Below, in pieces: positions 34,201 to 38,860 of a stretch of DNA of 38,860 nt. The position numbers were made by a program, and so were the translations under genes. Source of the stretch: Candidatus Spechtbacteria bacterium SB0662_bin_43 (GTDB lineage Bacteria; Patescibacteriota; Minisyncoccia; Spechtbacterales; 2-12-FULL-38-22); contig VXOY01000032.1 in the NCBI GenBank assembly GCA_009839835.1, positions 1 to 38,860 of the forward strand. Direction: 5' to 3'. Below the pieces are notes generated by a model. It saw nothing but the letters and a program-made list of their open reading frames with translations. It ran no database searches and was not told the origin of the DNA. Position 1 is the stretch's first letter. Each line of letters starts with the position of its first letter.

Positions 34201-34425
34201 CGCCTCTACTTCGTTATACTTTGGTTCCTCAAACTTGTAGTCGCCAAACGATACCTCTAATTCCTTGCCTGAAAAATCAGTAATAGGAGAAACCTCATCC
34301 AGCAACGAACGAAGTCCAGAGGCGAGGAACCATTCGTACGATGCTCGCTGTATCTCCAGTAGGTTTGGTATCTCTGTTTCCTTGTGGGAATACCGAGAAA
34401 AAACTTTTGTTTTGATGGTAGTCAT
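31201..34425 (-). CDS. rpoB: RNA polymerase beta subunit
   Basis: SQLSQFMD..NPL, HYGRICPI.TPEGPNIG, GDKLAGRHGNKG, GGQRFGEMEVW. Confidence 0.99.
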   Translation of the reverse strand: MTTIKTKVFSRYSHKETEIPNLLEIQRASYEWFLASGLRSLLDEVSPITDFSGKELEVSFGDYKFEEPKYNEVEARRQNASYESALRVTAQLLVKKTGEIKEQEIYLGTFPIMTERGTFIINGVGRVMISQLIRSSGVFFTDVMSRGKHLFCAKIIPNRGAWLEFETEYTDVIYVKIDRKRKVAATTLLRAFGMSTADIKKAFQKVDTGSVQYIAETLKQDAAKNQVEAFIEIYKRIRPGDLATPENAQSLVENTFFNFDRYDLSNVGRWKTDQRLGELFEITGDTPKEAKDGFSYTKEERVLHKNDVIRIIAEIIRMNNDHDAVPDDIDHLGNRRVRSVGETLQNRLRLGLTRMERIAKDKMSTLDIDSITPSQIINIRPVASVVNEFFASSQLSQFMDNTNPLAELEHKRILSATGPGGLTRDRAGFEVRDVQPSHYGRICPIQTPEGPNIGLVGRLSIFARINGFGFLETPYYVVKNGKITNEIHYLNALQEERAYIAAGTTDITIKDGVILDKEVSCRFRGTPTQIPTKKIQYIDVSPKQFISVATALVPFIEHDDAKRALMASNMQRQAVPCIRPEDPFVGTGLEERVARDSGLLVIAESNGKVVSSDAKHIKVRYNATKKQASHTKQYDLNNFVRGNQYTVIHQSAKVNAGAVVKKGDILADTSSVKDGFLSLGKNLLVAFMSWRGCNFEDAIVLNERLVKDDVLSSVYIEDQSTDVRETKLGPEITTPDIPNVGEDKLRNLDEEGIVRIGADVGPGDILVGKISPKGEADLTSEERLLRAIFGEKARDVKDTSLRMPHGKRGRVVGITVFSRDNGEKLPTGVIKKIQVEIAELRKIEAGDKLAGRHGNKGVISRVLPEEEMPFAPDGTPVDIILNPLGVPSRMNIGQILEVHLGWAAGTLGYRAITPAFSGATEADIKSELVRAGLPEDGKITLRDGQTGEPFHQPVTVGYMYIMKLVHMVEDKIHMRSIGPYSLITQQPLGGKAQFGGQRFGEMEVWALEGYGAAHNLQEILTIKSDDVLGRSSAYESIIKGEEIKKPNIPESFNVLVNEIKGLGLNVEIEETKED

Positions 34426-34555
34426 AGTGAGTGGGTTTTAGGGTGAAAAAATTACAACAGAACACCTGCCATTGTTACGGCAGTTTCTAAAATGCACTAT
34501 AATAAACCCAGCGTGCGAACATTGATCTCCCGCACACTGCTTGTTTGTTCTTTTT

Positions 34556-34584
34556 ATTGTAATACACTATGTTTATTTCGTCAA
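34556..34584 (-). promoter_or_regulatory. sigma70-type promoter of rpoBC
   Basis: TTGACG-17 nt-TACAAT on the minus strand, giving a leader of about 125 nt. Confidence 0.7.
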
Positions 34585-34610
34585 ACTATGTTTCCCAAGA
34601 AAAAATCATA

Positions 34611-34754
34611 CCTCTCTCTCCCTCATTCTCCCTTCCCTCTCCCTCTTTCTCCTTCTCCTTTCCTCCCCCACCTATCTCTTCCTCTCTTTTCTCTCTCCTT
34701 TTTCCCTCTTCCCCTCCCTCTTTTTTTCTCTTCTCTCTTCCTCCCCCTCCTCTC
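34611..34754. repeat. polypyrimidine/polypurine low-complexity tract
   Basis: 144 nt of C/T on the + strand, with only three A and no G. Confidence 0.9.
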
Positions 34755-34905
34755 ACACACTGGAATCTGGAATATGGAACAAAAATAAAAACAGGCAGAT
34801 GGGTTGGTAGGGATACAATTCTTTCAAAAGGTATCGTCAAGGAGTGATTGAAATTAACTGATTTTAGAAAACACGCATTTTTGGGGATAATTCGGTGTTT
34901 TGAAT

Positions 34906-34934
34906 ATTTAATTTCAACCCCCTTGAAATTAAAT
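34906..34934. promoter_or_regulatory. 12-bp inverted repeat, operator-like
   Basis: ATTTAATTTCAA-CCCCC-TTGAAATTAAAT, plus an extra half-site TTGAAATTAA at 34848-34857. Confidence 0.5.
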
Positions 34935-35054
34935 GAAAGTACGAAACGGCTATGGATATAAAAAGATACCTTTGGTAGAGAAGAATCAATAACACAGAAT
35001 TTGGTCGTACTGAGTTAAGAACATAAATAGGTTCATAGATAAGATTAAAGAGTA

Positions 35055-35081
35055 AATCCCCCCGCTTGTAGCGGGGGGATT
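35055..35081 (-). terminator. intrinsic terminator of the 95-aa gene
   Basis: AATCCCCCCGCT/AGCGGGGGGATT stem, followed on the minus strand by T-rich sequence. Confidence 0.7.
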
Positions 35082-35086
35082 ACCCC

Positions 35087-35374
35087 TCAGAGAAGGAGAG
35101 GAGAGTGCGGCTCCAGGATGTCGCCATCAAATGGCTCCAGGTAGTAGTCAAGGATAGGTCTTCCGTCGTCATGGATGTCAACGGTGTACCACCCTTTTCG
35201 AACCCACCACTCTGGGTGACCATAGTGCTTCTCACAGAGCCTGCAAAAGAATGCTTTACAGGGATTTCTCGCTCCCCTCTCCTTTGCTCGCACCCCATTC
35301 ATCACAACATTGCGATGCCTGGGACACTTCACCTCTCTGCGTCCTGGTACTATATGAGGTCGAATTCCAGGCAT
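35087..35374 (-). CDS. small hypothetical protein, putative Zn-binding (CxxH...CxxC)
   Basis: GGAGG shortly before the ATG, an upstream TTGACT...TGnTATAAA, a downstream terminator, and motifs CPRH and CRLC. Confidence 0.6.
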   Translation of the reverse strand: MPGIRPHIVPGRREVKCPRHRNVVMNGVRAKERGARNPCKAFFCRLCEKHYGHPEWWVRKGWYTVDIHDDGRPILDYYLEPFDGDILEPHSPLLL

Positions 35375-35465
35375 CTCTGCCTCCCTTCAGTACATTCTTT
35401 ATAACATATTTTCAAAAAAAGTCAATACCTATAGCGCCCCTCAATTATTGACTATGACACATATA

Positions 35466-35494
35466 TTGACATAAAGCATATAGTATGTTATGCT
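35466..35494 (+). promoter_or_regulatory. sigma70-type promoter of the 20-aa peptide gene
   Basis: TTGACA-17 nt-TATGCT with an extended -10 TG. Confidence 0.7.
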
Positions 35495-35528
35495 ATATAT
35501 ACCTGTCAGCAGTTAGAAAGGATACGAG

Positions 35529-35591
35529 ATGGACGCCGAGATTGCGACGCTCGCAATCCTTGCTGGGCTTTTCGTTCTCAGTCTGTTGTGA
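35529..35591 (+). CDS. 20-aa hydrophobic peptide MDAEIATLAILAGLFVLSLL (below the ORF-track cutoff)
   Basis: Has its own promoter, an SD AGAAAGGA 6 nt before the ATG, a TGA stop and its own terminator. Confidence 0.65.
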   Translation: MDAEIATLAILAGLFVLSLL

Positions 35592-35604
35592 TTGCAGCAC
35601 TCTT

Positions 35605-35638
35605 GCAGAGGAGAGTATAAACCCTCTGCTTTTGTTTT
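35605..35638 (+). terminator. intrinsic terminator
   Basis: GCAGAGG/CCTCTGC stem followed by TTTTGTTTT. Confidence 0.7.
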
Positions 35639-35705
35639 AATACAATTATTCGGATCTACCCATTGCCTCAACCCTTCTTGTGTAATGTATGCTCCGCAAC
35701 AGAGC

Positions 35706-35736
35706 ATATAAACATAATGAACAATTATGGTTTTAC
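35706..35736 (+). other. putative tyrosine-recombinase crossover site A (dif-like), overlapping the pilin A start codon
   Basis: ATATAAACATAA-TGAACAA-TTATGGTTTTAC. Same core as site B, in opposite orientation. Confidence 0.65.
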
Positions 35737-36256
35737 CTTGATTGAGTTACTTGTTGTGATTGCAATTATAGGAACTCTATCTACGATAGGTTTCATTGCT
35801 CTTACATCCTCACAAGAGGGGGCAAATGAGTCCGTGACGGTTAGTGAGTTGCAAACAATACGGTCTGCAATCACTATTAACTATGTATCAGCGGCTGGAC
35901 TACCAGAGGTCGTGGGTGGTAAAGGGGCTATAAAACTAAAGACAAGTACATCGGCAGGTATTTTGGGATGTGAGTTGGCGAATACCGCAAGCTCTATTGG
36001 CACAAAGTTGGCAGGAAAGGTTGAGGGTATTGATTGGAGCAAATATGTGTTCTGTGCTGATAAAGCAGGAAAAGGAGACGGGGCAAGAACGGTTTTGATT
36101 GGTACAGTTGCGGGAGGAGCATTGGATTCAAAACACACATTCTTGGGTGGTAGCGCAAAAGATGTAGTGCCTGTAGGAAATGGAGTAGTAGGCTTAGATT
36201 GTAGCCTAAAAACAGCACCTACAAAAACGATACCCTGTATAAAAATAGAGAAATAA
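35717..36256 (+). CDS. type IV pilin-like protein A (possibly a silent cassette)
   Basis: Class III signal MNNYG|FTLIELLVVIAIIG and 4 Cys in the variable domain. No clear SD. Confidence 0.88.
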   Translation: MNNYGFTLIELLVVIAIIGTLSTIGFIALTSSQEGANESVTVSELQTIRSAITINYVSAAGLPEVVGGKGAIKLKTSTSAGILGCELANTASSIGTKLAGKVEGIDWSKYVFCADKAGKGDGARTVLIGTVAGGALDSKHTFLGGSAKDVVPVGNGVVGLDCSLKTAPTKTIPCIKIEK

Positions 36257-36274
36257 CATAGTGTATTCCTCGCA

Positions 36275-36310
36275 ATACAAAAAACACCTCGTTTGAGGTG
36301 TTTTTTGTAT
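36275..36310. terminator. bidirectional terminator between the convergent pilins
   Basis: 16-bp perfect stem ATACAAAAAACACCTC/GAGGTGTTTTTTGTAT with A/T tracts on both sides. Confidence 0.85.
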
Positions 36311-36336
36311 GATGCTATGTGCAATATGTCTATGGA

Positions 36337-36870
36337 TTACGGTGTAAGTGTTCCAACACAGTAAAGCCCTCCTGTTGTACCACCCGCTATACATGTAATT
36401 TGCTTCGGTGCTGTAGAACCACCGTATGTTCCTGCAGCCGCACCGCCATTAGGTAATGCTCCTTTTAGTGTTGTTGCTACTAAAAACTTACTTCCTGTGC
36501 CATCACTACAATAAAAGTAGTTGTCTTTATCCACGCCCGTAAGCTGTCCAATCATACTACCAAGAGGTGTTGCTGATGCTCCCGTTGTCGTTGCTGATGT
36601 CTTTGAGGTGTGGTCAGCCGCTGTGGTGTCTGTGTTTTGTCCATCTAACCTTATACAATCCTCACTTCCAGCAGTTACAATAGGATATACTCTATTTTTG
36701 GAAAGCTCAACAGTCGCTGCAGACCTTATGCTTTGTAGCTCTGCTAACCTTTTTGCATCATCTGCACCATCGCTTGCCCCACTTAGAGCCAAGAACCCAA
36801 TCGTTGATAGAGTTCCTATGATTGCAATAACTACCAGTAACTCAATCAAGGTAAAACCATAATTGTTCAT
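36337..36870 (-). CDS. type IV pilin-like protein B (promoter/RBS-linked copy)
   Basis: MNNYG|FTLIELLVVIAIIG and 4 Cys. GAGGG SD-like motif and TGnTATGAT extended -10 upstream. Confidence 0.9.
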   Translation of the reverse strand: MNNYGFTLIELLVVIAIIGTLSTIGFLALSGASDGADDAKRLAELQSIRSAATVELSKNRVYPIVTAGSEDCIRLDGQNTDTTAADHTSKTSATTTGASATPLGSMIGQLTGVDKDNYFYCSDGTGSKFLVATTLKGALPNGGAAAGTYGGSTAPKQITCIAGGTTGGLYCVGTLTP

Positions 36871-36881
36871 TATGTTAATAC
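36851..36881 (-). other. putative tyrosine-recombinase crossover site B (dif-like), overlapping the pilin B start codon
   Basis: The + strand reads GTAAAACCATAA-TTGTTCA-TTATGTTAATAC. The arms are 9/12 palindromic, and the right arm matches the XerD arm of E. coli dif (TTATGTTAAAT) at 9 consecutive bases. Confidence 0.7.
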
Positions 36882-36930
36882 CCTCTTTTCTTTTTGTTTT
36901 TATCAATATGCTTGATATCATAACAGTATA
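36880..36930 (-). repeat. 51-bp pilin promoter/leader, left copy of an exact inverted repeat
   Basis: Its reverse complement is identical to 38806-38856. Confidence 0.9.
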
Positions 36931-37005
36931 TAATATAAATAATAATTAGATACTCCAATTATACCACACCGACAATAGAGGGTTATACACAAGGGGTGTC
37001 TTTTT

Positions 37006-37926
37006 TTAATTCATAACTTTTGCGACAATATTTTCTATGTCTTGTTGCCCATAATGAAGATATATTTGCGTGGTTACAATGCTTTTATGTCGCATGATTT
37101 CTTTTACAGCATACAGGTTTTGATTATGACGTAGGTATTTTGTTGCTGTATAGTGTCGCAAGGTATGGGGTGAAATAGGATATTGTACATCAGCTCGTAT
37201 GCCAGCCTTTTTAACCATATTATAAATTGCTGTACGACTCATTCTGTTCCACTTCATTGTTTTGGTGTTTTTTGATAAAAAAAGAGCTCTATTTTTTTCT
37301 GTACAACGATGAAGGTATTCTCGTATATGGTTATACGTATGCATCGTGAGAAATACAGTTTCGTTTTTACCTCCTTTACCTCGCACTGTTATGCGTGAAA
37401 CCCTCTTCAGTAACGCCTCTTGGGGTATATCCTCTCTATTGAGGGAACATAACTCGCTGACACGCAGTCCACTGGTTGCAAGAAATGATACAATAGCCCT
37501 ATCACGTAATCCTTCTATGGTAGAGGTATCAAAACTGTTGAGGATATTTTTTATCTCCCTATCGCTGAGAATAACTCTTTTGTGTGTCGTATGCTTTACG
37601 GACTCAAGTAACGCAATACGAATGTTGGCGTATTCCTGTTTGTTCAACCAAGATGCAAAACACTTATATATAGTCATAAAATAACGTATAGATGACATTG
37701 ATAATCCTTGTATTCTCATTTTTCCTATACAACTATTGATGCAATGATGATCTAAGTCTTCAATATATTCTACTTGAATATATTCTGTAAAACGGTTCAT
37801 AGCGTGTGTGTACATCAAAACACTGTTTTGCGACAATCCTCGGTCCTCACAGGAAATAAGGTACTCTTTGATGTAGTGGTTTATATGCGTTTCTCTTCTA
37901 CTCTTTGTTGTTGATTGATTTTTCAT
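37006..37926 (-). CDS. Xer-like tyrosine recombinase
   Basis: 306 aa with catalytic R (SGLRVSEL), K (GKGGK), HxLR (HTLRH), H (MRHKS) and Y (TTQIY). N-terminal SAM-like core-binding domain. Confidence 0.93.
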   Translation of the reverse strand: MKNQSTTKSRRETHINHYIKEYLISCEDRGLSQNSVLMYTHAMNRFTEYIQVEYIEDLDHHCINSCIGKMRIQGLSMSSIRYFMTIYKCFASWLNKQEYANIRIALLESVKHTTHKRVILSDREIKNILNSFDTSTIEGLRDRAIVSFLATSGLRVSELCSLNREDIPQEALLKRVSRITVRGKGGKNETVFLTMHTYNHIREYLHRCTEKNRALFLSKNTKTMKWNRMSRTAIYNMVKKAGIRADVQYPISPHTLRHYTATKYLRHNQNLYAVKEIMRHKSIVTTQIYLHYGQQDIENIVAKVMN

Positions 37927-38000
37927 ACTATAGTGATAATTGATACGATATTTTCATAGAGTAGATTACTATTTCGGTCAAGAAATTCGTTGCTCAAAGA

Positions 38001-38024
38001 AAAAATGCTCATCACAGCATTTTT
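38001..38024 (-). terminator. hairpin/terminator between the NYN gene and the recombinase
   Basis: AAAAATGCT/AGCATTTTT stem with T-rich flanks. Confidence 0.5.
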
Positions 38025-38027
38025 GTT

Positions 38028-38082
38028 AAGGAGTGTAAGGGTGTTAGTACCTAAGCTACTCTTTTCTTTTTTTAGTTTAAAC
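38028..38082 (+). repeat. diverged second copy of the NYN-adjacent structured element
   Basis: GGTGTTAGTACCTAAGCTACTCTTTTCTTTTTTTAGTTTAAAC versus GGTGTTGGTGCCTAAGCTACCCCTTTCTTTTTTTTTAATTTAAAC (38193-38237). Confidence 0.8.
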
Positions 38083-38133
38083 ACCCTACAGTATGTATTT
38101 CGTGAAATAAAAACAGTGTGTGGATAATGCTTA

Positions 38134-38162
38134 TTGACAAAAAAATGGTGGGGATTTATAAT
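38134..38162 (+). promoter_or_regulatory. perfect consensus sigma70 promoter
   Basis: TTGACA-17 nt-TATAAT, pointing at the 3' end of the NYN gene with no ORF downstream. Confidence 0.85.
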
Positions 38163-38168
38163 GGAGAT

Positions 38169-38228
38169 GTAACCACGAAGGGGGGCGCGAACGGTGTTGG
38201 TGCCTAAGCTACCCCTTTCTTTTTTTTT
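38169..38228 (+). ncRNA. putative ~60-nt structured small RNA, convergent with the NYN gene
   Basis: Consensus promoter, stems AAGGGG/CCCCTT and GGCGC/GTGCC, a terminal U tract, and a second covarying copy nearby. Confidence 0.6.
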
Positions 38229-38712
38229 AATTTAAACGTTCGATTTTATGTTTTATAGTCGAGAGATGCATTGCGTACCTGTCTCCAATGCTTTTGTATA
38301 ATGAAGATTTGTTTTTATTAGGGAATAGTATTTTTCCGAATTTATTTTCATCAATAAGAAAATTTACCAATTTATAATAATCACCATCTCCTGAAACAAT
38401 AAAAATCTTTTCAATATCGCTTCGTTTTAGTAAGGCTTTCATAACAGAAAATACAAGATCAACATCAATGTTTCCCTTTTTAGGAGACAGCATTTTTTCA
38501 TTATGATCCTTGAATTGAAGAATATACCCAATTTGTTGTAGTGTGTTATATAAATCTGTTTTTCCCGCTTTTACATACCCAAAAAAGCAATACACCTCTT
38601 CAATATTGTATTTATCCCGTAAATAAATACGAAATTTTTTATAATCTACTCTCCACCCATATTTTTGGGTTCCATAGTATAAGTTTTGTTCATCTATAAA
38701 TGCGATATTCAT
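38227..38712 (-). CDS. NYN domain protein (LabA/DUF88, PIN-like RNase fold)
   Basis: Acidic active-site motifs AFIDEQNL, KGNIDVDL, IVSGDGDY. Confidence 0.9.
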   Translation of the reverse strand: MNIAFIDEQNLYYGTQKYGWRVDYKKFRIYLRDKYNIEEVYCFFGYVKAGKTDLYNTLQQIGYILQFKDHNEKMLSPKKGNIDVDLVFSVMKALLKRSDIEKIFIVSGDGDYYKLVNFLIDENKFGKILFPNKNKSSLYKSIGDRYAMHLSTIKHKIERLN

Positions 38713-38805
38713 AGGTTTTGTTGCTTAGATATATATCTTATTATTATACAGCATTTATGCTTGTTTTTCTATTTTTAGAATACATAGAATAATCGTAACT
38801 CATTG

Positions 38806-38860
38806 TATACTGTTATGATATCAAGCATATTGATAAAAACAAAAAGAAAAGAGGGTTTTA
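38806..38860 (+). repeat. right copy of the pilin promoter/leader repeat; runs off the window edge
   Basis: 54 of 55 nt match the reverse complement of 36876-36930, and the first 51 are identical. Confidence 0.9.

What the first reader, a model, noticed from the sequence alone, without database searches (positions are those of the whole stretch)
35706..37926. Candidate pilin-switching inversion system: dif-like sites built into pilin start codons next to a Xer-like recombinase
Seen: two convergent type IV pilin genes share a bidirectional terminator. Each ATG lies inside a 12-7-12 imperfect palindrome (site A ATATAAACATAA-TGAACAA-TTATGGTTTTAC; site B GTATTAACATAA-TGAACAA-TTATGGTTTTAC, read in gene orientation). 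The asymmetric cores are identical and the sites are inverted relative to each other, about 1.15 kb apart. An intact tyrosine recombinase gene ends about 125 bp from site B. Pilin B has an SD-like GAGGG and an extended -10; pilin A sits behind a terminator with no clear SD. Established: tyrosine recombinases act on inverted arms around a 6-8 bp core, inverted sites give inversion, and E. coli dif is GGTGCGCATAA-TGTATA-TTATGTTAAAT. Known pilin inversions use Piv (Moraxella, a DEDD enzyme) or Rci (the pilV shufflon, which swaps C-termini). Inference: crossover at the start codon would swap whole pilin ORFs between an expressed and a silent position. That would give phase variation of pili, plausibly affecting host attachment or phage evasion in an episymbiont. 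I do not know of this architecture being described in Patescibacteria.
Basis: partly seen in the sequence, partly recalled or inferred. Interest (0 to 1): 0.92.

Follow-up and report, generated by a model that had tools for sequence, protein, structure and literature searches.

The report
Candidate invertible pilin switch beside recombinase
Two tail-to-tail pilus-subunit genes in a tiny sponge-associated bacterium share an oddly perfect stretch of DNA at their starts, next to an extra DNA-flipping enzyme, so the cell may swap which pilus protein it makes, but no flipped copy has yet been seen.

Summary
The two convergent type IV pilin genes, their shared terminator and an intact tyrosine recombinase 124 nt away are confirmed. 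The shared inverted repeat is 105 nt (88%) with a 41-nt exact block, not a 31-nt site. The 12-7-12 palindrome is common in this window (44 copies).

New points:
- pilB most likely starts 51 nt further upstream, at a basic 14-residue leader peptide. This leader lies in a 59-nt repeat that recurs at the contig end and on contig C31.
pilA starts inside the same insert and lacks the basic leader.
- A related strain appears to have four pilins. The two that lack the insert carry the plain leader.
- The exact block has no synonymous changes. Pilin paralogues in relatives always differ there.
- The recombinase is an extra, rare paralogue, not the conserved Xer.

Against the switch: no read evidence for inversion could be obtained, and a strain with a near-identical recombinase seems to carry a different insert.

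Verdict: a plausible (about 0.5) recombinase-driven swap of mature pilin bodies, mechanistically like Mycoplasma vpma/vsa. It would be a new variant of a known kind and is unproven.

The parts
35717..36256 (+). pilA. Type IV pilin of 179 aa with the short uncharged leader MNNYG. It has no copy of the 59-nt leader repeat upstream. This is the candidate silent or weakly expressed position.
   Evidence: ORF; PF07963; TIGR02532. P0121 is 91% identical and has the same short leader.
36337..36921 (-). pilB. Type IV pilin read from the upstream ATG at 36921 (194 aa). It consists of a 14-residue basic leader, an 8-residue insert and the mature pilin.
   Evidence: ORF 36337..36921. P0125 and P0127 carry the same 22-residue leader. 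P0122, P0123 and P0128 carry the 14-residue leader joined directly to FTLIE.
35698..35802 (+). Left arm of the 105-nt inverted repeat: 19 nt upstream of the pilA ATG plus 86 nt of coding sequence.
   Evidence: I1, 88% complementary; self-BLAST E 3e-28.
36785..36889 (-). Right arm of the 105-nt inverted repeat, at the 5' end of pilB.
35711..35751 (+). The 41-nt block that is exactly identical in both arms (its mate is 36836-36876). Candidate recombination site. Codons 1-11 show no synonymous difference.
   Evidence: control with pilin paralogues of relatives.
36856..36879 (-). 24-nt in-frame insert (8 residues) between the Gly that ends the basic leader and Phe+1 of pilB. The matching stretch in pilA is 35708-35731 and holds the pilA ATG.
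   Evidence: Comparison of the window sequence with P0122, P0123 and P0128, which lack the insert.
36876..36934 (-). Repeat R1: 13 nt upstream of the ATG at 36921, the 42 nt that encode the basic leader, and 4 nt beyond.
   Evidence: I2, 59 nt, 97%.
38802..38860 (+). Repeat R2: an inverted copy of R1 at the contig end. It reads rightwards and breaks off after the codons Glu-Gly-Phe, so it is the start of a third pilin gene that lies in the assembly gap. Contig C31 starts with the reverse complement of the last 55 nt.
36275..36310 (.). Bidirectional terminator hairpin between pilA and pilB.
   Evidence: I3, 16 nt, 100%; z -7.0 and -7.7.
37006..37926 (-). Extra Xer-like tyrosine recombinase of 306 aa. 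It has the same orientation as pilB and ends 85 nt upstream of the pilB leader ATG.
   Evidence: PF00589 and PF02899. It aligns with XerA 4a8e over residues 11-303, including the conserved LRH, RH and IY stretches. It is not the conserved Xer of the order.
36958..36966 (-). TGnTATAAT motif, a candidate extended -10 promoter for pilB. It lies between the recombinase stop codon and R1.
   Evidence: Read from the sequence printed. Consensus match only; not tested.

Best explanation
The 1.1-kb segment 35752-36835 carries the bodies of two type IV pilins tail to tail. It is probably an invertible cassette.

Fixed on the right is an expression site. It consists of a promoter, a 14-residue basic prepilin leader and a 24-nt in-frame insert. 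Fixed on the left is a position that has only the insert, with its own ATG, and no basic leader.

The adjacent extra Xer-like tyrosine recombinase is proposed to exchange strands inside the 41-nt block that is identical in both copies. Either mature pilin would then be fused in frame to the promoter and basic leader, and the other would be parked. The leader is cut off by the prepilin peptidase, so the site costs the mature protein nothing.

Two further pilin genes carry the plain leader without the insert. One starts at the contig end. They would be constitutive.

Shown here: the anatomy, the DNA-level identity of the block, and the identity of the recombinase. Inferred: the inversion itself, which enzyme performs it, and where the crossover lies.
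For: 1. The anatomy fits. The arms are inverted, 105 nt at 88% with a 41-nt exact block at the 5' ends of two convergent pilins. The shared terminator lies between them.
2. The shared element is an insert, not just the conserved pilin N-terminus. P0122, P0123 and P0128 have the 14-residue leader joined directly to FTLIE. pilB (P0125) and P0127 have 8 extra residues there. pilA, P0121 and P0124 start inside those 8 residues. The contig end encodes the direct junction.
3. P0001 (recombinase, 97% identical), P0122, P0124, P0127 and P0128 are all listed with a longest contig of 124,800 nt. This suggests four pilins in one locus, of which only one pair carries the insert.
4. There is a constraint at the DNA level. 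Codons 1-11 show 0 synonymous differences, against 7 in the 15 codons 12-26. By my arithmetic the Fisher p is about 0.01.
5. In 17 within-genome pilin paralogue pairs from 9 relatives, 0 pairs are identical over the GFTLIEL codons (mean 4.1 of 7 differ). The pilA/pilB pair shows 0 of 7.
6. The short leader is atypical. It has no Lys or Arg, against 1 of 50 listed leaders in the relatives. Its coding pattern was found in 0 of 400 other genomes of the class.
7. The recombinase is an extra gene. The conserved Xer is the C13 gene, 52-67% identical in 11 of 15 order relatives. The window enzyme reaches only 24-40% identity over its aligned stretches (26-32% for the near-full-length matches) in the 40 relatives searched. 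It has no match at E <= 1e-38 in 400 genomes of the phylum. Among 5.8 billion proteins only two are closer than 40% (P0001 at 97%, P0002 at 48%).
8. In the 15 order relatives, neighbouring pilin hits lie on one strand in every cluster in the table. Only this genome has an opposite-strand pair.
9. The short-leader genes are intact in three assemblies (pilA, P0121, P0124).
10. One pilin body, 93% identical in its variable part, sits behind a long leader in P0130 and behind a short one in P0132.
Against: - No orientation variant was seen, and none could have been. All four runs are k=31 contigs that stop at the block. The k=55 assembly gives one orientation.
- Run X2 has recombinase pieces with 12 differences in 356 nt and 16 in 501 nt. 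Its loose end at 36858 reads as the P0132-type leader, a different and longer insert. If these pieces come from one genome, nearly the same enzyme faces a different sequence. The recognised part would then have to lie elsewhere, or the enzyme is not involved.
- P0001 is cut short at 245 aa, before the catalytic His and Tyr region. This is either a real frameshift or an assembly error.
- The pilA-family body sits at the short-leader position in 3 of 3 assemblies (G000, the 124,800-nt contig and the 20,412-nt contig). Free switching would predict some variation.
- The palindrome is not unusual in this window.
- The 59-nt leader repeat is also 97-100% identical among its copies, while the neighbouring NYN genes are 74% identical. 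Gene conversion is therefore active or plausible in this locus and could explain the exact block.
- pilA may be expressed on its own. A weak promoter-like site exists, and the genome does not rely on SD sequences.
Confidence: 0.5

Rival explanations
1. The genes are static paralogues. pilA and pilB are ordinary duplicated pilins. Their 5' ends look alike because the pilin N-terminus is conserved and is now and then homogenised by gene conversion. The recombinase has another role, for example a second Xer or a remnant of an integrated element, and its position is a coincidence.
For: - Only one orientation is seen in the assembly.
- The pilA-family body is at the short-leader position in 3 of 3 assemblies.
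- The leader repeat R is 97-100% identical among three copies beside NYN genes that are only 74% identical, which points to gene conversion in this locus.
- Palindromes of this quality are common in the window.
- P0001 is truncated.
- A different insert appears beside a near-identical recombinase in run X2.
Against: - This does not explain why the expressed copy carries an in-frame insert that matches the start of the other copy, while the paralogues with the same leader lack it.
- It does not explain why the exact identity is confined to 41 nt, flanked by diverged synonymous sites.
- The recombinase has no phage or plasmid relative above 32% identity, and it is kept at 97% identity at the same place in a second strain.
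- A 755-kb genome has little room for idle genes; this last point is inference.
Confidence: 0.3
2. The segment does invert, but by general homologous recombination between the 105-nt arms, or it only undergoes gene conversion. The neighbouring recombinase plays no part.
For: - The arms are long for a site-specific system and hold a 41-nt exact stretch.
- The insert differs between strains while the recombinase hardly does.
- Pilin bodies seem to have moved between leader contexts, with junctions downstream of the insert (P0130 against P0132).
Against: - A 41-nt exact match is near the lower limit for RecA-type exchange; this is recalled, not tested.
- This reading leaves the extra recombinase unexplained. 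It is co-oriented with pilB and directly upstream of it.
- Homologous exchange would tend to homogenise the whole arm, not a sharply bounded block.
Confidence: 0.12
3. The locus is a wider system with several sites. All four pilin 5' ends, including the leader repeats R1, R2 and R3, are substrates. The recombinase-NYN segment (36935-38801) would also flip, and bodies would shuffle among four positions as in a shufflon.
For: - R1 and R2 are inverted 59-nt repeats that bracket the recombinase and the NYN gene.
- The assembly breaks exactly there, and C31 starts with the same 55-mer.
- Four pilins are listed with the same 124,800-nt contig length.
- The Logan unitig of X4 spans exactly 36901-38835, from one repeat to the other.
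Against: - Contig breaks at repeats of k or longer are expected without any inversion. Six other contig-end pairs share 55-mers in the same way.
- Flipping between two promoter-bearing copies changes nothing obvious.
- The insert is absent from the other two copies.
Confidence: 0.08

Closest known systems
Mycoplasma agalactiae vpma / Xer1, with M. bovis vsp / Mbr and M. pulmonis vsa / HvsR
   Same: - A small genome with a Xer-like tyrosine recombinase gene beside a family of surface-protein genes.
- Site-specific inversions place alternative silent genes behind a single promoter.
- The recombination sites lie in the conserved 5' region of each gene and include a short stretch of complete identity (21 bp in vpma). 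(PMC2268961, passages read.)
   Different: - Here the genes are type IV pilins, not lipoproteins.
- Only two sites carrying the insert were seen.
- The candidate site lies inside the coding sequence of a cleaved leader peptide, not in the 5' UTR.
- Two further paralogues seem to have their own promoter-side leader.
- Inversion is unproven here. No sequence comparison with Xer1 or HvsR was made.
Moraxella bovis / lacunata pilin inversion by Piv (recalled; only named in search listings)
   Same: Two pilin bodies lie in opposite orientation in one invertible segment. The crossover lies in the conserved 5' coding region. The promoter and the 5' end stay fixed, and the recombinase gene lies next to the segment.
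   Different: Piv is a DEDD-type enzyme (recalled). The enzyme here is a tyrosine recombinase. Here the junction would lie in the leader, so the whole mature pilin is exchanged.
R64-type shufflon, Rci with pilV (mentioned in PMC9881135)
   Same: A tyrosine recombinase alters a type IV pilin gene by inversion. Rci sites are asymmetric, with one conserved arm and a 7-bp spacer (recalled). That would be one way to reconcile different inserts with one enzyme.
   Different: The shufflon swaps the C-terminal segments of a minor pilin among many sites on a plasmid. Here the whole mature bodies of chromosomal pilins would be swapped between two sites.
Xer / dif chromosome dimer resolution
   Same: The enzyme is Xer-like by Pfam and NCBIfam ranking.
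   Different: - The enzyme is not the conserved Xer of the order.
- There are two inverted copies inside genes.
- All Xer model cut-offs are missed.

Membership tests
Type IV pilin (prepilin with class III signal peptide) | N-terminal cleavage and methylation motif G|FxxxE followed by a hydrophobic helix | tested here: met
   PF07963 at 30.4 and 31.2 bits, cut-off 21.2. TIGR02532 at 31.9 and 32.7 bits, cut-off 16.3.
Type IV pilin (prepilin with class III signal peptide) | Short, positively charged leader before the cleavage Gly | tested here: inconclusive
   Met by pilB if it is read from 36921 (leader with K, K, R, K). Not met by pilA (MNNYG). Of the 50 leaders listed for relatives, 1 lacks K or R.
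Tyrosine recombinase | Catalytic domain with the Arg, His-x-x-Arg, His and Tyr residues | tested here: met
   PF00589 at 110.6 bits. The alignment to XerA 4a8e shows the conserved glRvSEl, LRH, gH/rH and TTQIY stretches.
XerC / XerD / XerA (housekeeping dimer resolvase) | Score above the curated equivalog cut-off | tested here: not met
   XerA_Arch 181 bits against 220, XerD 160 against 330, XerC 147 against 335. The C13 paralogue also misses the cut-offs but scores higher.
XerC / XerD / XerA (housekeeping dimer resolvase) | Orthologue conserved in related genomes | tested here: not met
   The C13 gene is 52-67% identical in 11 of 15 order relatives. The window gene reaches only 24-40% over its aligned stretches, 26-32% for the near-full-length matches.
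dif site | Two arms of about 11 bp around a 6-bp spacer, one copy per chromosome at the terminus | tested here: not met
CATAA-N6-TTATG occurs 0 times in the genome. There are two inverted copies inside genes. The position of the terminus cannot be tested in 32 contigs.
FimB / FimE-type tyrosine DNA invertase | Match to NF007370 or NF007371 above the cut-off | tested here: not met
   41.1 bits against 221 and 29.2 bits against 222.
Programmed (site-specific) inversion system | Inverted repeats flank the segment and a recombinase gene lies next to it | tested here: met
Programmed (site-specific) inversion system | Both orientations present in one population, with junctions at the repeats | not testable with these tools
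   The only runs offered are Logan k=31 contigs. They end at 35751 / 35722 and at 36865 and cannot bridge the 41-nt block.
Shufflon (Rci type) | Several sites, usually four or more, that shuffle alternative C-terminal segments of one pilin | tested here: not met
   Only two copies of the insert were found in the genome. The junction lies at the N-terminus.

The most novel reading that the evidence does not exclude
A Patescibacteria-type episymbiont with a 0.76-Mb genome keeps a dedicated Xer-like invertase whose recombination site is written in frame into the cleaved leader peptide of its type IV pilins. One promoter and leader can then be fused to either of two complete mature pilins. Strains exchange the pilin bodies as cassettes. 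This would be the first programmed DNA inversion described in this phylum, and a new design in which the site is hidden in a signal peptide.
Probability: 0.45. Interest if true: 0.75.

Novelty: new variant of a known kind. Interest (0 to 1): 0.6.

Why it matters
Type IV pili are the best supported attachment and host-recognition device of Patescibacteria. This rests on listings and abstracts only, such as PMC12206443. These organisms cannot yet be grown without a host.

A switch that changes the major pilin would give a concrete, testable route to variation in host range or to evasion of phage and host defences in an episymbiont of a sponge community. It would also extend the Mycoplasma-style way in which small genomes vary their surface, with a Xer-like enzyme beside a gene family, to another reduced lineage and to pilins.

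My two searches that combined inversion terms with names of the phylum listed no paper holding both among the 15 rows shown. This is weak evidence that the subject is unpublished. A survey of gene-altering inversions did find 'Pilin' enriched among predicted targets (PMC9881135), so the general idea is not new.

Tried and rejected
1. Read evidence. The look-up of sequencing runs gave six runs, all held as Logan contigs. Read laying on four of them showed contigs that stop at the repeats. No conclusion about orientation is possible. The depth of the middle unitig (63 against about 50) was not interpreted.

2. Searching for the recombinase elsewhere.
- Genome contigs gave only one distant locus, 25% identical.
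- Metagenome contigs gave nothing.
- A second metagenome scan with P0126 gave nothing. The DNA of the contigs that hold P0001, P0002, P0121-P0132 could therefore not be read. Their layout is inferred from equal contig lengths and from the protein N-termini only.

3. Synteny. The pilin clusters of seven relatives in the same family share no neighbouring genes with this locus.

4. Rfam found nothing credible in 34300-38860, and there are no tRNAs.

5. Shine-Dalgarno argument: rejected.

6. Mobile-element origin of the recombinase: no phage or plasmid relative above 32% identity.

7. Integron-like reading of the small repeated hairpin elements beside the NYN genes: rejected. Each has its own promoter-like site and a T-run, so they look like small transcripts.

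8. The other six contig-end pairs that share 55-mers were checked and are unrelated repeats.

9. Supplementary files of papers were not opened. Those of PMC9881135 may list pilin inversions that bear on novelty.
Full report
SETTING
The window is the whole of contig C1 of a genome of 755,616 bp in 32 contigs, 93% complete. The nearest database proteins are named as Patescibacteria or Paceibacterota by their sources. The runs that hold the stretch are sponge metagenomes by their record.

- pilA lies at 35717-36256 on the + strand. pilB lies at 36337-36870 on the - strand. Both carry the prepilin N-terminal motif.
- Their stop codons are separated by a perfect 16-bp hairpin. It folds equally well on both strands, z -7.0 and -7.7.
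- A 306-aa tyrosine recombinase lies at 37006-37926 on the - strand. It aligns over nearly its whole length with XerA 4a8e, and the conserved catalytic stretches are present.

THE REPEAT
- The shared inverted repeat is not a 31-nt site. It is 105 nt at 88% identity (35698-35802 and 36785-36889; E 3e-28).
- Its longest exact block is 41 nt, 35711-35751.
- The 12-7-12 palindrome scores 9 of 12 at both copies. The window holds 44 palindromes of that quality, against 16.6 +/- 4.4 in shuffles, so it carries no weight alone.
- CATAA-N7-TTATG occurs three times in the genome: the two pilin copies and C9:2191. The N6 form typical of dif occurs nowhere.

A SECOND REPEAT CHANGES THE READING
- Contig C31 begins with the exact reverse complement of the last 55 nt of C1. 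The k=55 assembly therefore broke at this repeat.
- The repeat contains an ATG at 36921 that is in frame with pilB (ORF 36337..36921, 194 aa).
- Database relatives settle what it is. P0122, P0123 and P0128 begin with the 14-residue basic leader MISSILIKTKRKEG, followed at once by FTLIE. The last letters of C1 encode the same leader and then Gly-Phe.
- The repeat is therefore the coding sequence of a normal, positively charged prepilin leader plus 13 nt upstream.
The 'extended -10' contains the leader's ATG.
- The genome shows no SD enrichment at all: 73 of 443 ORF starts, 16%, the same as random 17-mers.
- A TGnTATAAT motif lies at 36958-36966 on the - strand, between the recombinase stop codon and the repeat.

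THE INSERT
- Compared with the plain-leader genes, pilB has 24 extra nucleotides in frame (36856-36879, eight residues) between the leader's final Gly and Phe+1.
- pilA starts inside the same 24 nt (35708-35731). It has the leader MNNYG and nothing of the basic leader.
- P0001 (recombinase, 97% identical), P0124 (short leader), P0127 (long leader plus insert) and P0122 and P0128 (long leader without insert) are all listed with a longest contig of 124,800 nt.
- I take this to mean one locus with four pilins in a sister strain, of which only one pair has the insert. That they share a contig is inferred from the equal contig length. I could not read the DNA.
- In G000 only pilA and pilB are assembled. 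The other two would lie in the gap between C1 and C31.

IS THE BLOCK MORE THAN PROTEIN CONSERVATION?
- The first 26 residues of the two pilins are identical. Codons 12-26 differ at 7 of 15 synonymous positions. Codons 1-11 and the 6 nt upstream differ at none. By my arithmetic the Fisher p is about 0.01.
- As a control I took pilin paralogues within each of 9 relatives of the same order, 17 pairs in all. Over the seven GFTLIEL codons they differ at 2-5 codons (mean 4.1), and 0 of 17 pairs are identical. pilA and pilB differ at 0 of 7 there.
- Something therefore keeps about 41 nt identical at the DNA level.
- The short leader is itself odd. It has no Lys or Arg, against 1 of 50 listed leaders in the relatives (one gene is listed twice). 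Its coding pattern was found in 0 of 400 other sampled genomes of the class.
- In the 15 order relatives, neighbouring pilin hits lie on one strand: 13 clusters in 12 genomes. The only opposite-strand pair in the table is this one.

THE RECOMBINASE
- The genome has a second tyrosine recombinase on contig C13.
- That one is 52-67% identical to a gene in 11 of 15 order relatives. It is the conserved Xer-like enzyme.
- The window enzyme matches in 36 of 40 relatives (E <= 0.001), for most of them at the same genes. Identity over the aligned stretches is 24-40%, and 26-32% for the near-full-length matches.
- It has no match at E <= 1e-38 in 400 sampled genomes of the phylum.
- It has no phage or plasmid relative above 32% identity.
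- Among 5.8 billion proteins only P0001 (97%), P0002 (48%) and P0003 (36%) stand out.
- It misses every curated Xer and invertase cut-off.
- It points the same way as pilB and ends 85 nt before the pilB leader ATG. The scan found no terminator-like site between them.

STRAIN COMPARISON
- In X1, the likely source, the contigs end at 35751 / 35722 and at 36865. With k=31 they cannot bridge a 41-nt repeat, so they say nothing about orientation.
- In X4 and X5 the flanks and the recombinase-NYN segment are about 97% identical (56 differing letters in 1937). The 80 nt around the pilB start show no difference. The pilin bodies are not covered. A 959-nt contig with the terminator in its middle replaces the 1144-nt one. 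The bodies are therefore exchanged wholesale between strains.
- In X2 the recombinase pieces differ by 12 of 356 and 16 of 501 letters. The loose end at 36858, read on the minus strand, encodes the leader type of P0132, a longer and different insert.
- P0126 and P0132 share a 17,859-nt contig length. Both carry that second insert type, one behind a long basic leader and the other behind a short one.
- The insert thus covaries within a pair. This fits two sites that must match.
- It also differs between strains whose recombinases are nearly the same. This argues against the insert being the whole recognition sequence, provided the X2 pieces come from one genome, which I cannot show.
- P0130 (long leader, first insert type) and P0132 (short leader, second insert type) have bodies that are 93% identical in the variable part. 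Other pairs lie at 24-61%, and pilA against P0121 is 90%. Bodies therefore do move between leader contexts.
- Against free switching, the pilA-family body is at the short-leader position in all 3 assemblies that show it.
- P0001 ends early at 245 aa, before the His and Tyr region. This is either a real frameshift or an error in an A-run.

MECHANISM PROPOSED
I propose that the tyrosine recombinase inverts 35752-36835 by exchange inside the 41-nt block. The promoter, the basic leader and the left part of the site stay in place, and the mature pilin that follows is swapped. Because the junction lies in the leader, which is cleaved off, both fusions are in frame and yield unaltered mature pilins.
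- Shown: the anatomy, the block identity, and the extra recombinase.
- Inferred: the inversion, the enzyme that performs it, and the crossover point.
- I put this at about 0.5.
- The main rival is static paralogues with gene conversion and an unrelated recombinase, about 0.3. It draws on the equally high identity of the leader repeats beside NYN genes that are only 74% identical.
- RecA-type inversion without the enzyme is about 0.12.
- A wider four-site system is about 0.08.

COMPARISON WITH KNOWN SYSTEMS
- The closest working model is Mycoplasma vpma/Xer1, with vsp/Mbr and vsa/HvsR. A Xer-like gene sits beside a surface-protein family, and inversions at sites in the conserved 5' region place silent genes behind a single promoter (PMC2268961, passages read).
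- The geometry also matches the Moraxella pilin inversion. That comparison is recalled, and the enzyme type differs.
- The Rci shufflon alters a pilin with a tyrosine recombinase, but at the C-terminus and with many sites (mentioned in PMC9881135).
- That survey also found the annotation 'Pilin' enriched among predicted targets of gene-altering inversions, and tyrosine recombinases enriched among their neighbours.
- The finding is therefore a new variant of a known kind. New are the lineage, the exchange of whole mature pilins, and a site placed in frame in a signal peptide.
- Two literature searches that paired inversion terms with names of the phylum listed no paper holding both in the rows shown.

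LIMITS
- No raw reads were on offer.
- The DNA of the most informative related contigs could not be fetched.

Noticed in passing
window 38028-38237 and 38227-38712; C31:216-902 (L003); also C16:14241-14582, C13:12799-12903, C12:9001-9051, C29:898-1007: A multi-copy module. It consists of an NYN-domain gene (PF01936) with one or two small GC-stem hairpin elements of about 50 nt, each ending in a T-run, that converge on its 3' end. One element sits behind a perfect TTGACA-17-TATAAT at 38134-38162. It looks like a small antisense transcript beside a putative RNase, possibly toxin-antitoxin-like. There is no Rfam match.
   Followed up: partly
window 35466-35640: A promoter-like site (TTGACA-17-TATGCT with TG) at 35466-35494 is followed by a 20-codon hydrophobic ORF at 35529-35591 and a weak hairpin with a T-run at 35605-35638 (z -1.9). 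This may be a small membrane peptide gene just upstream of pilA. Read-through from it could transcribe pilA.
   Followed up: partly
window 34426-35716: About 1.3 kb between the rpoB start and pilA has no convincing ORF. It includes a CT-rich low-complexity stretch at about 34586-34850 with an internal repeat (34613-34673 and 34690-34751). In strain X4 part of it is replaced or deleted (joints at 34619/34767 and 34842/34923). There is no Rfam or tRNA hit.
   Followed up: partly
whole genome G000: There is no enrichment of Shine-Dalgarno-like motifs upstream of 443 long ORFs (16%, against 16% in random 17-mers). Start-codon calls and 'no SD' arguments in this organism therefore need care.
   Followed up: partly
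P0001 (related strain), matching window 37006-37926: The recombinase of the sister strain is 97% identical but ends at 245 aa after what looks like a one-base change in the length of an A-run. It loses the catalytic C-terminus. This is either a real inactivation or an assembly error.
   Followed up: no
G000 contig ends (C2/C22, C7/C24, C10/C30, C12/C16, C20/C21, C27/C28): Six further pairs of contig ends share the same inward 55-mer, the same signature as C1 and C31. They are unrelated repeats: a G/C-run element, a repeated Gln/Asn-rich coding stretch, and terminators. They show how the k=55 assembly fragments.
   Followed up: partly
P0133/P0134 (14,477-nt contig) and P0140/P0143 (122,657-nt contig): More distant relatives have pairs of pilins with identical 22-24-residue leaders and different bodies. 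Paired pilins with homogenised 5' ends may be a wider habit of this clade.
   Followed up: no
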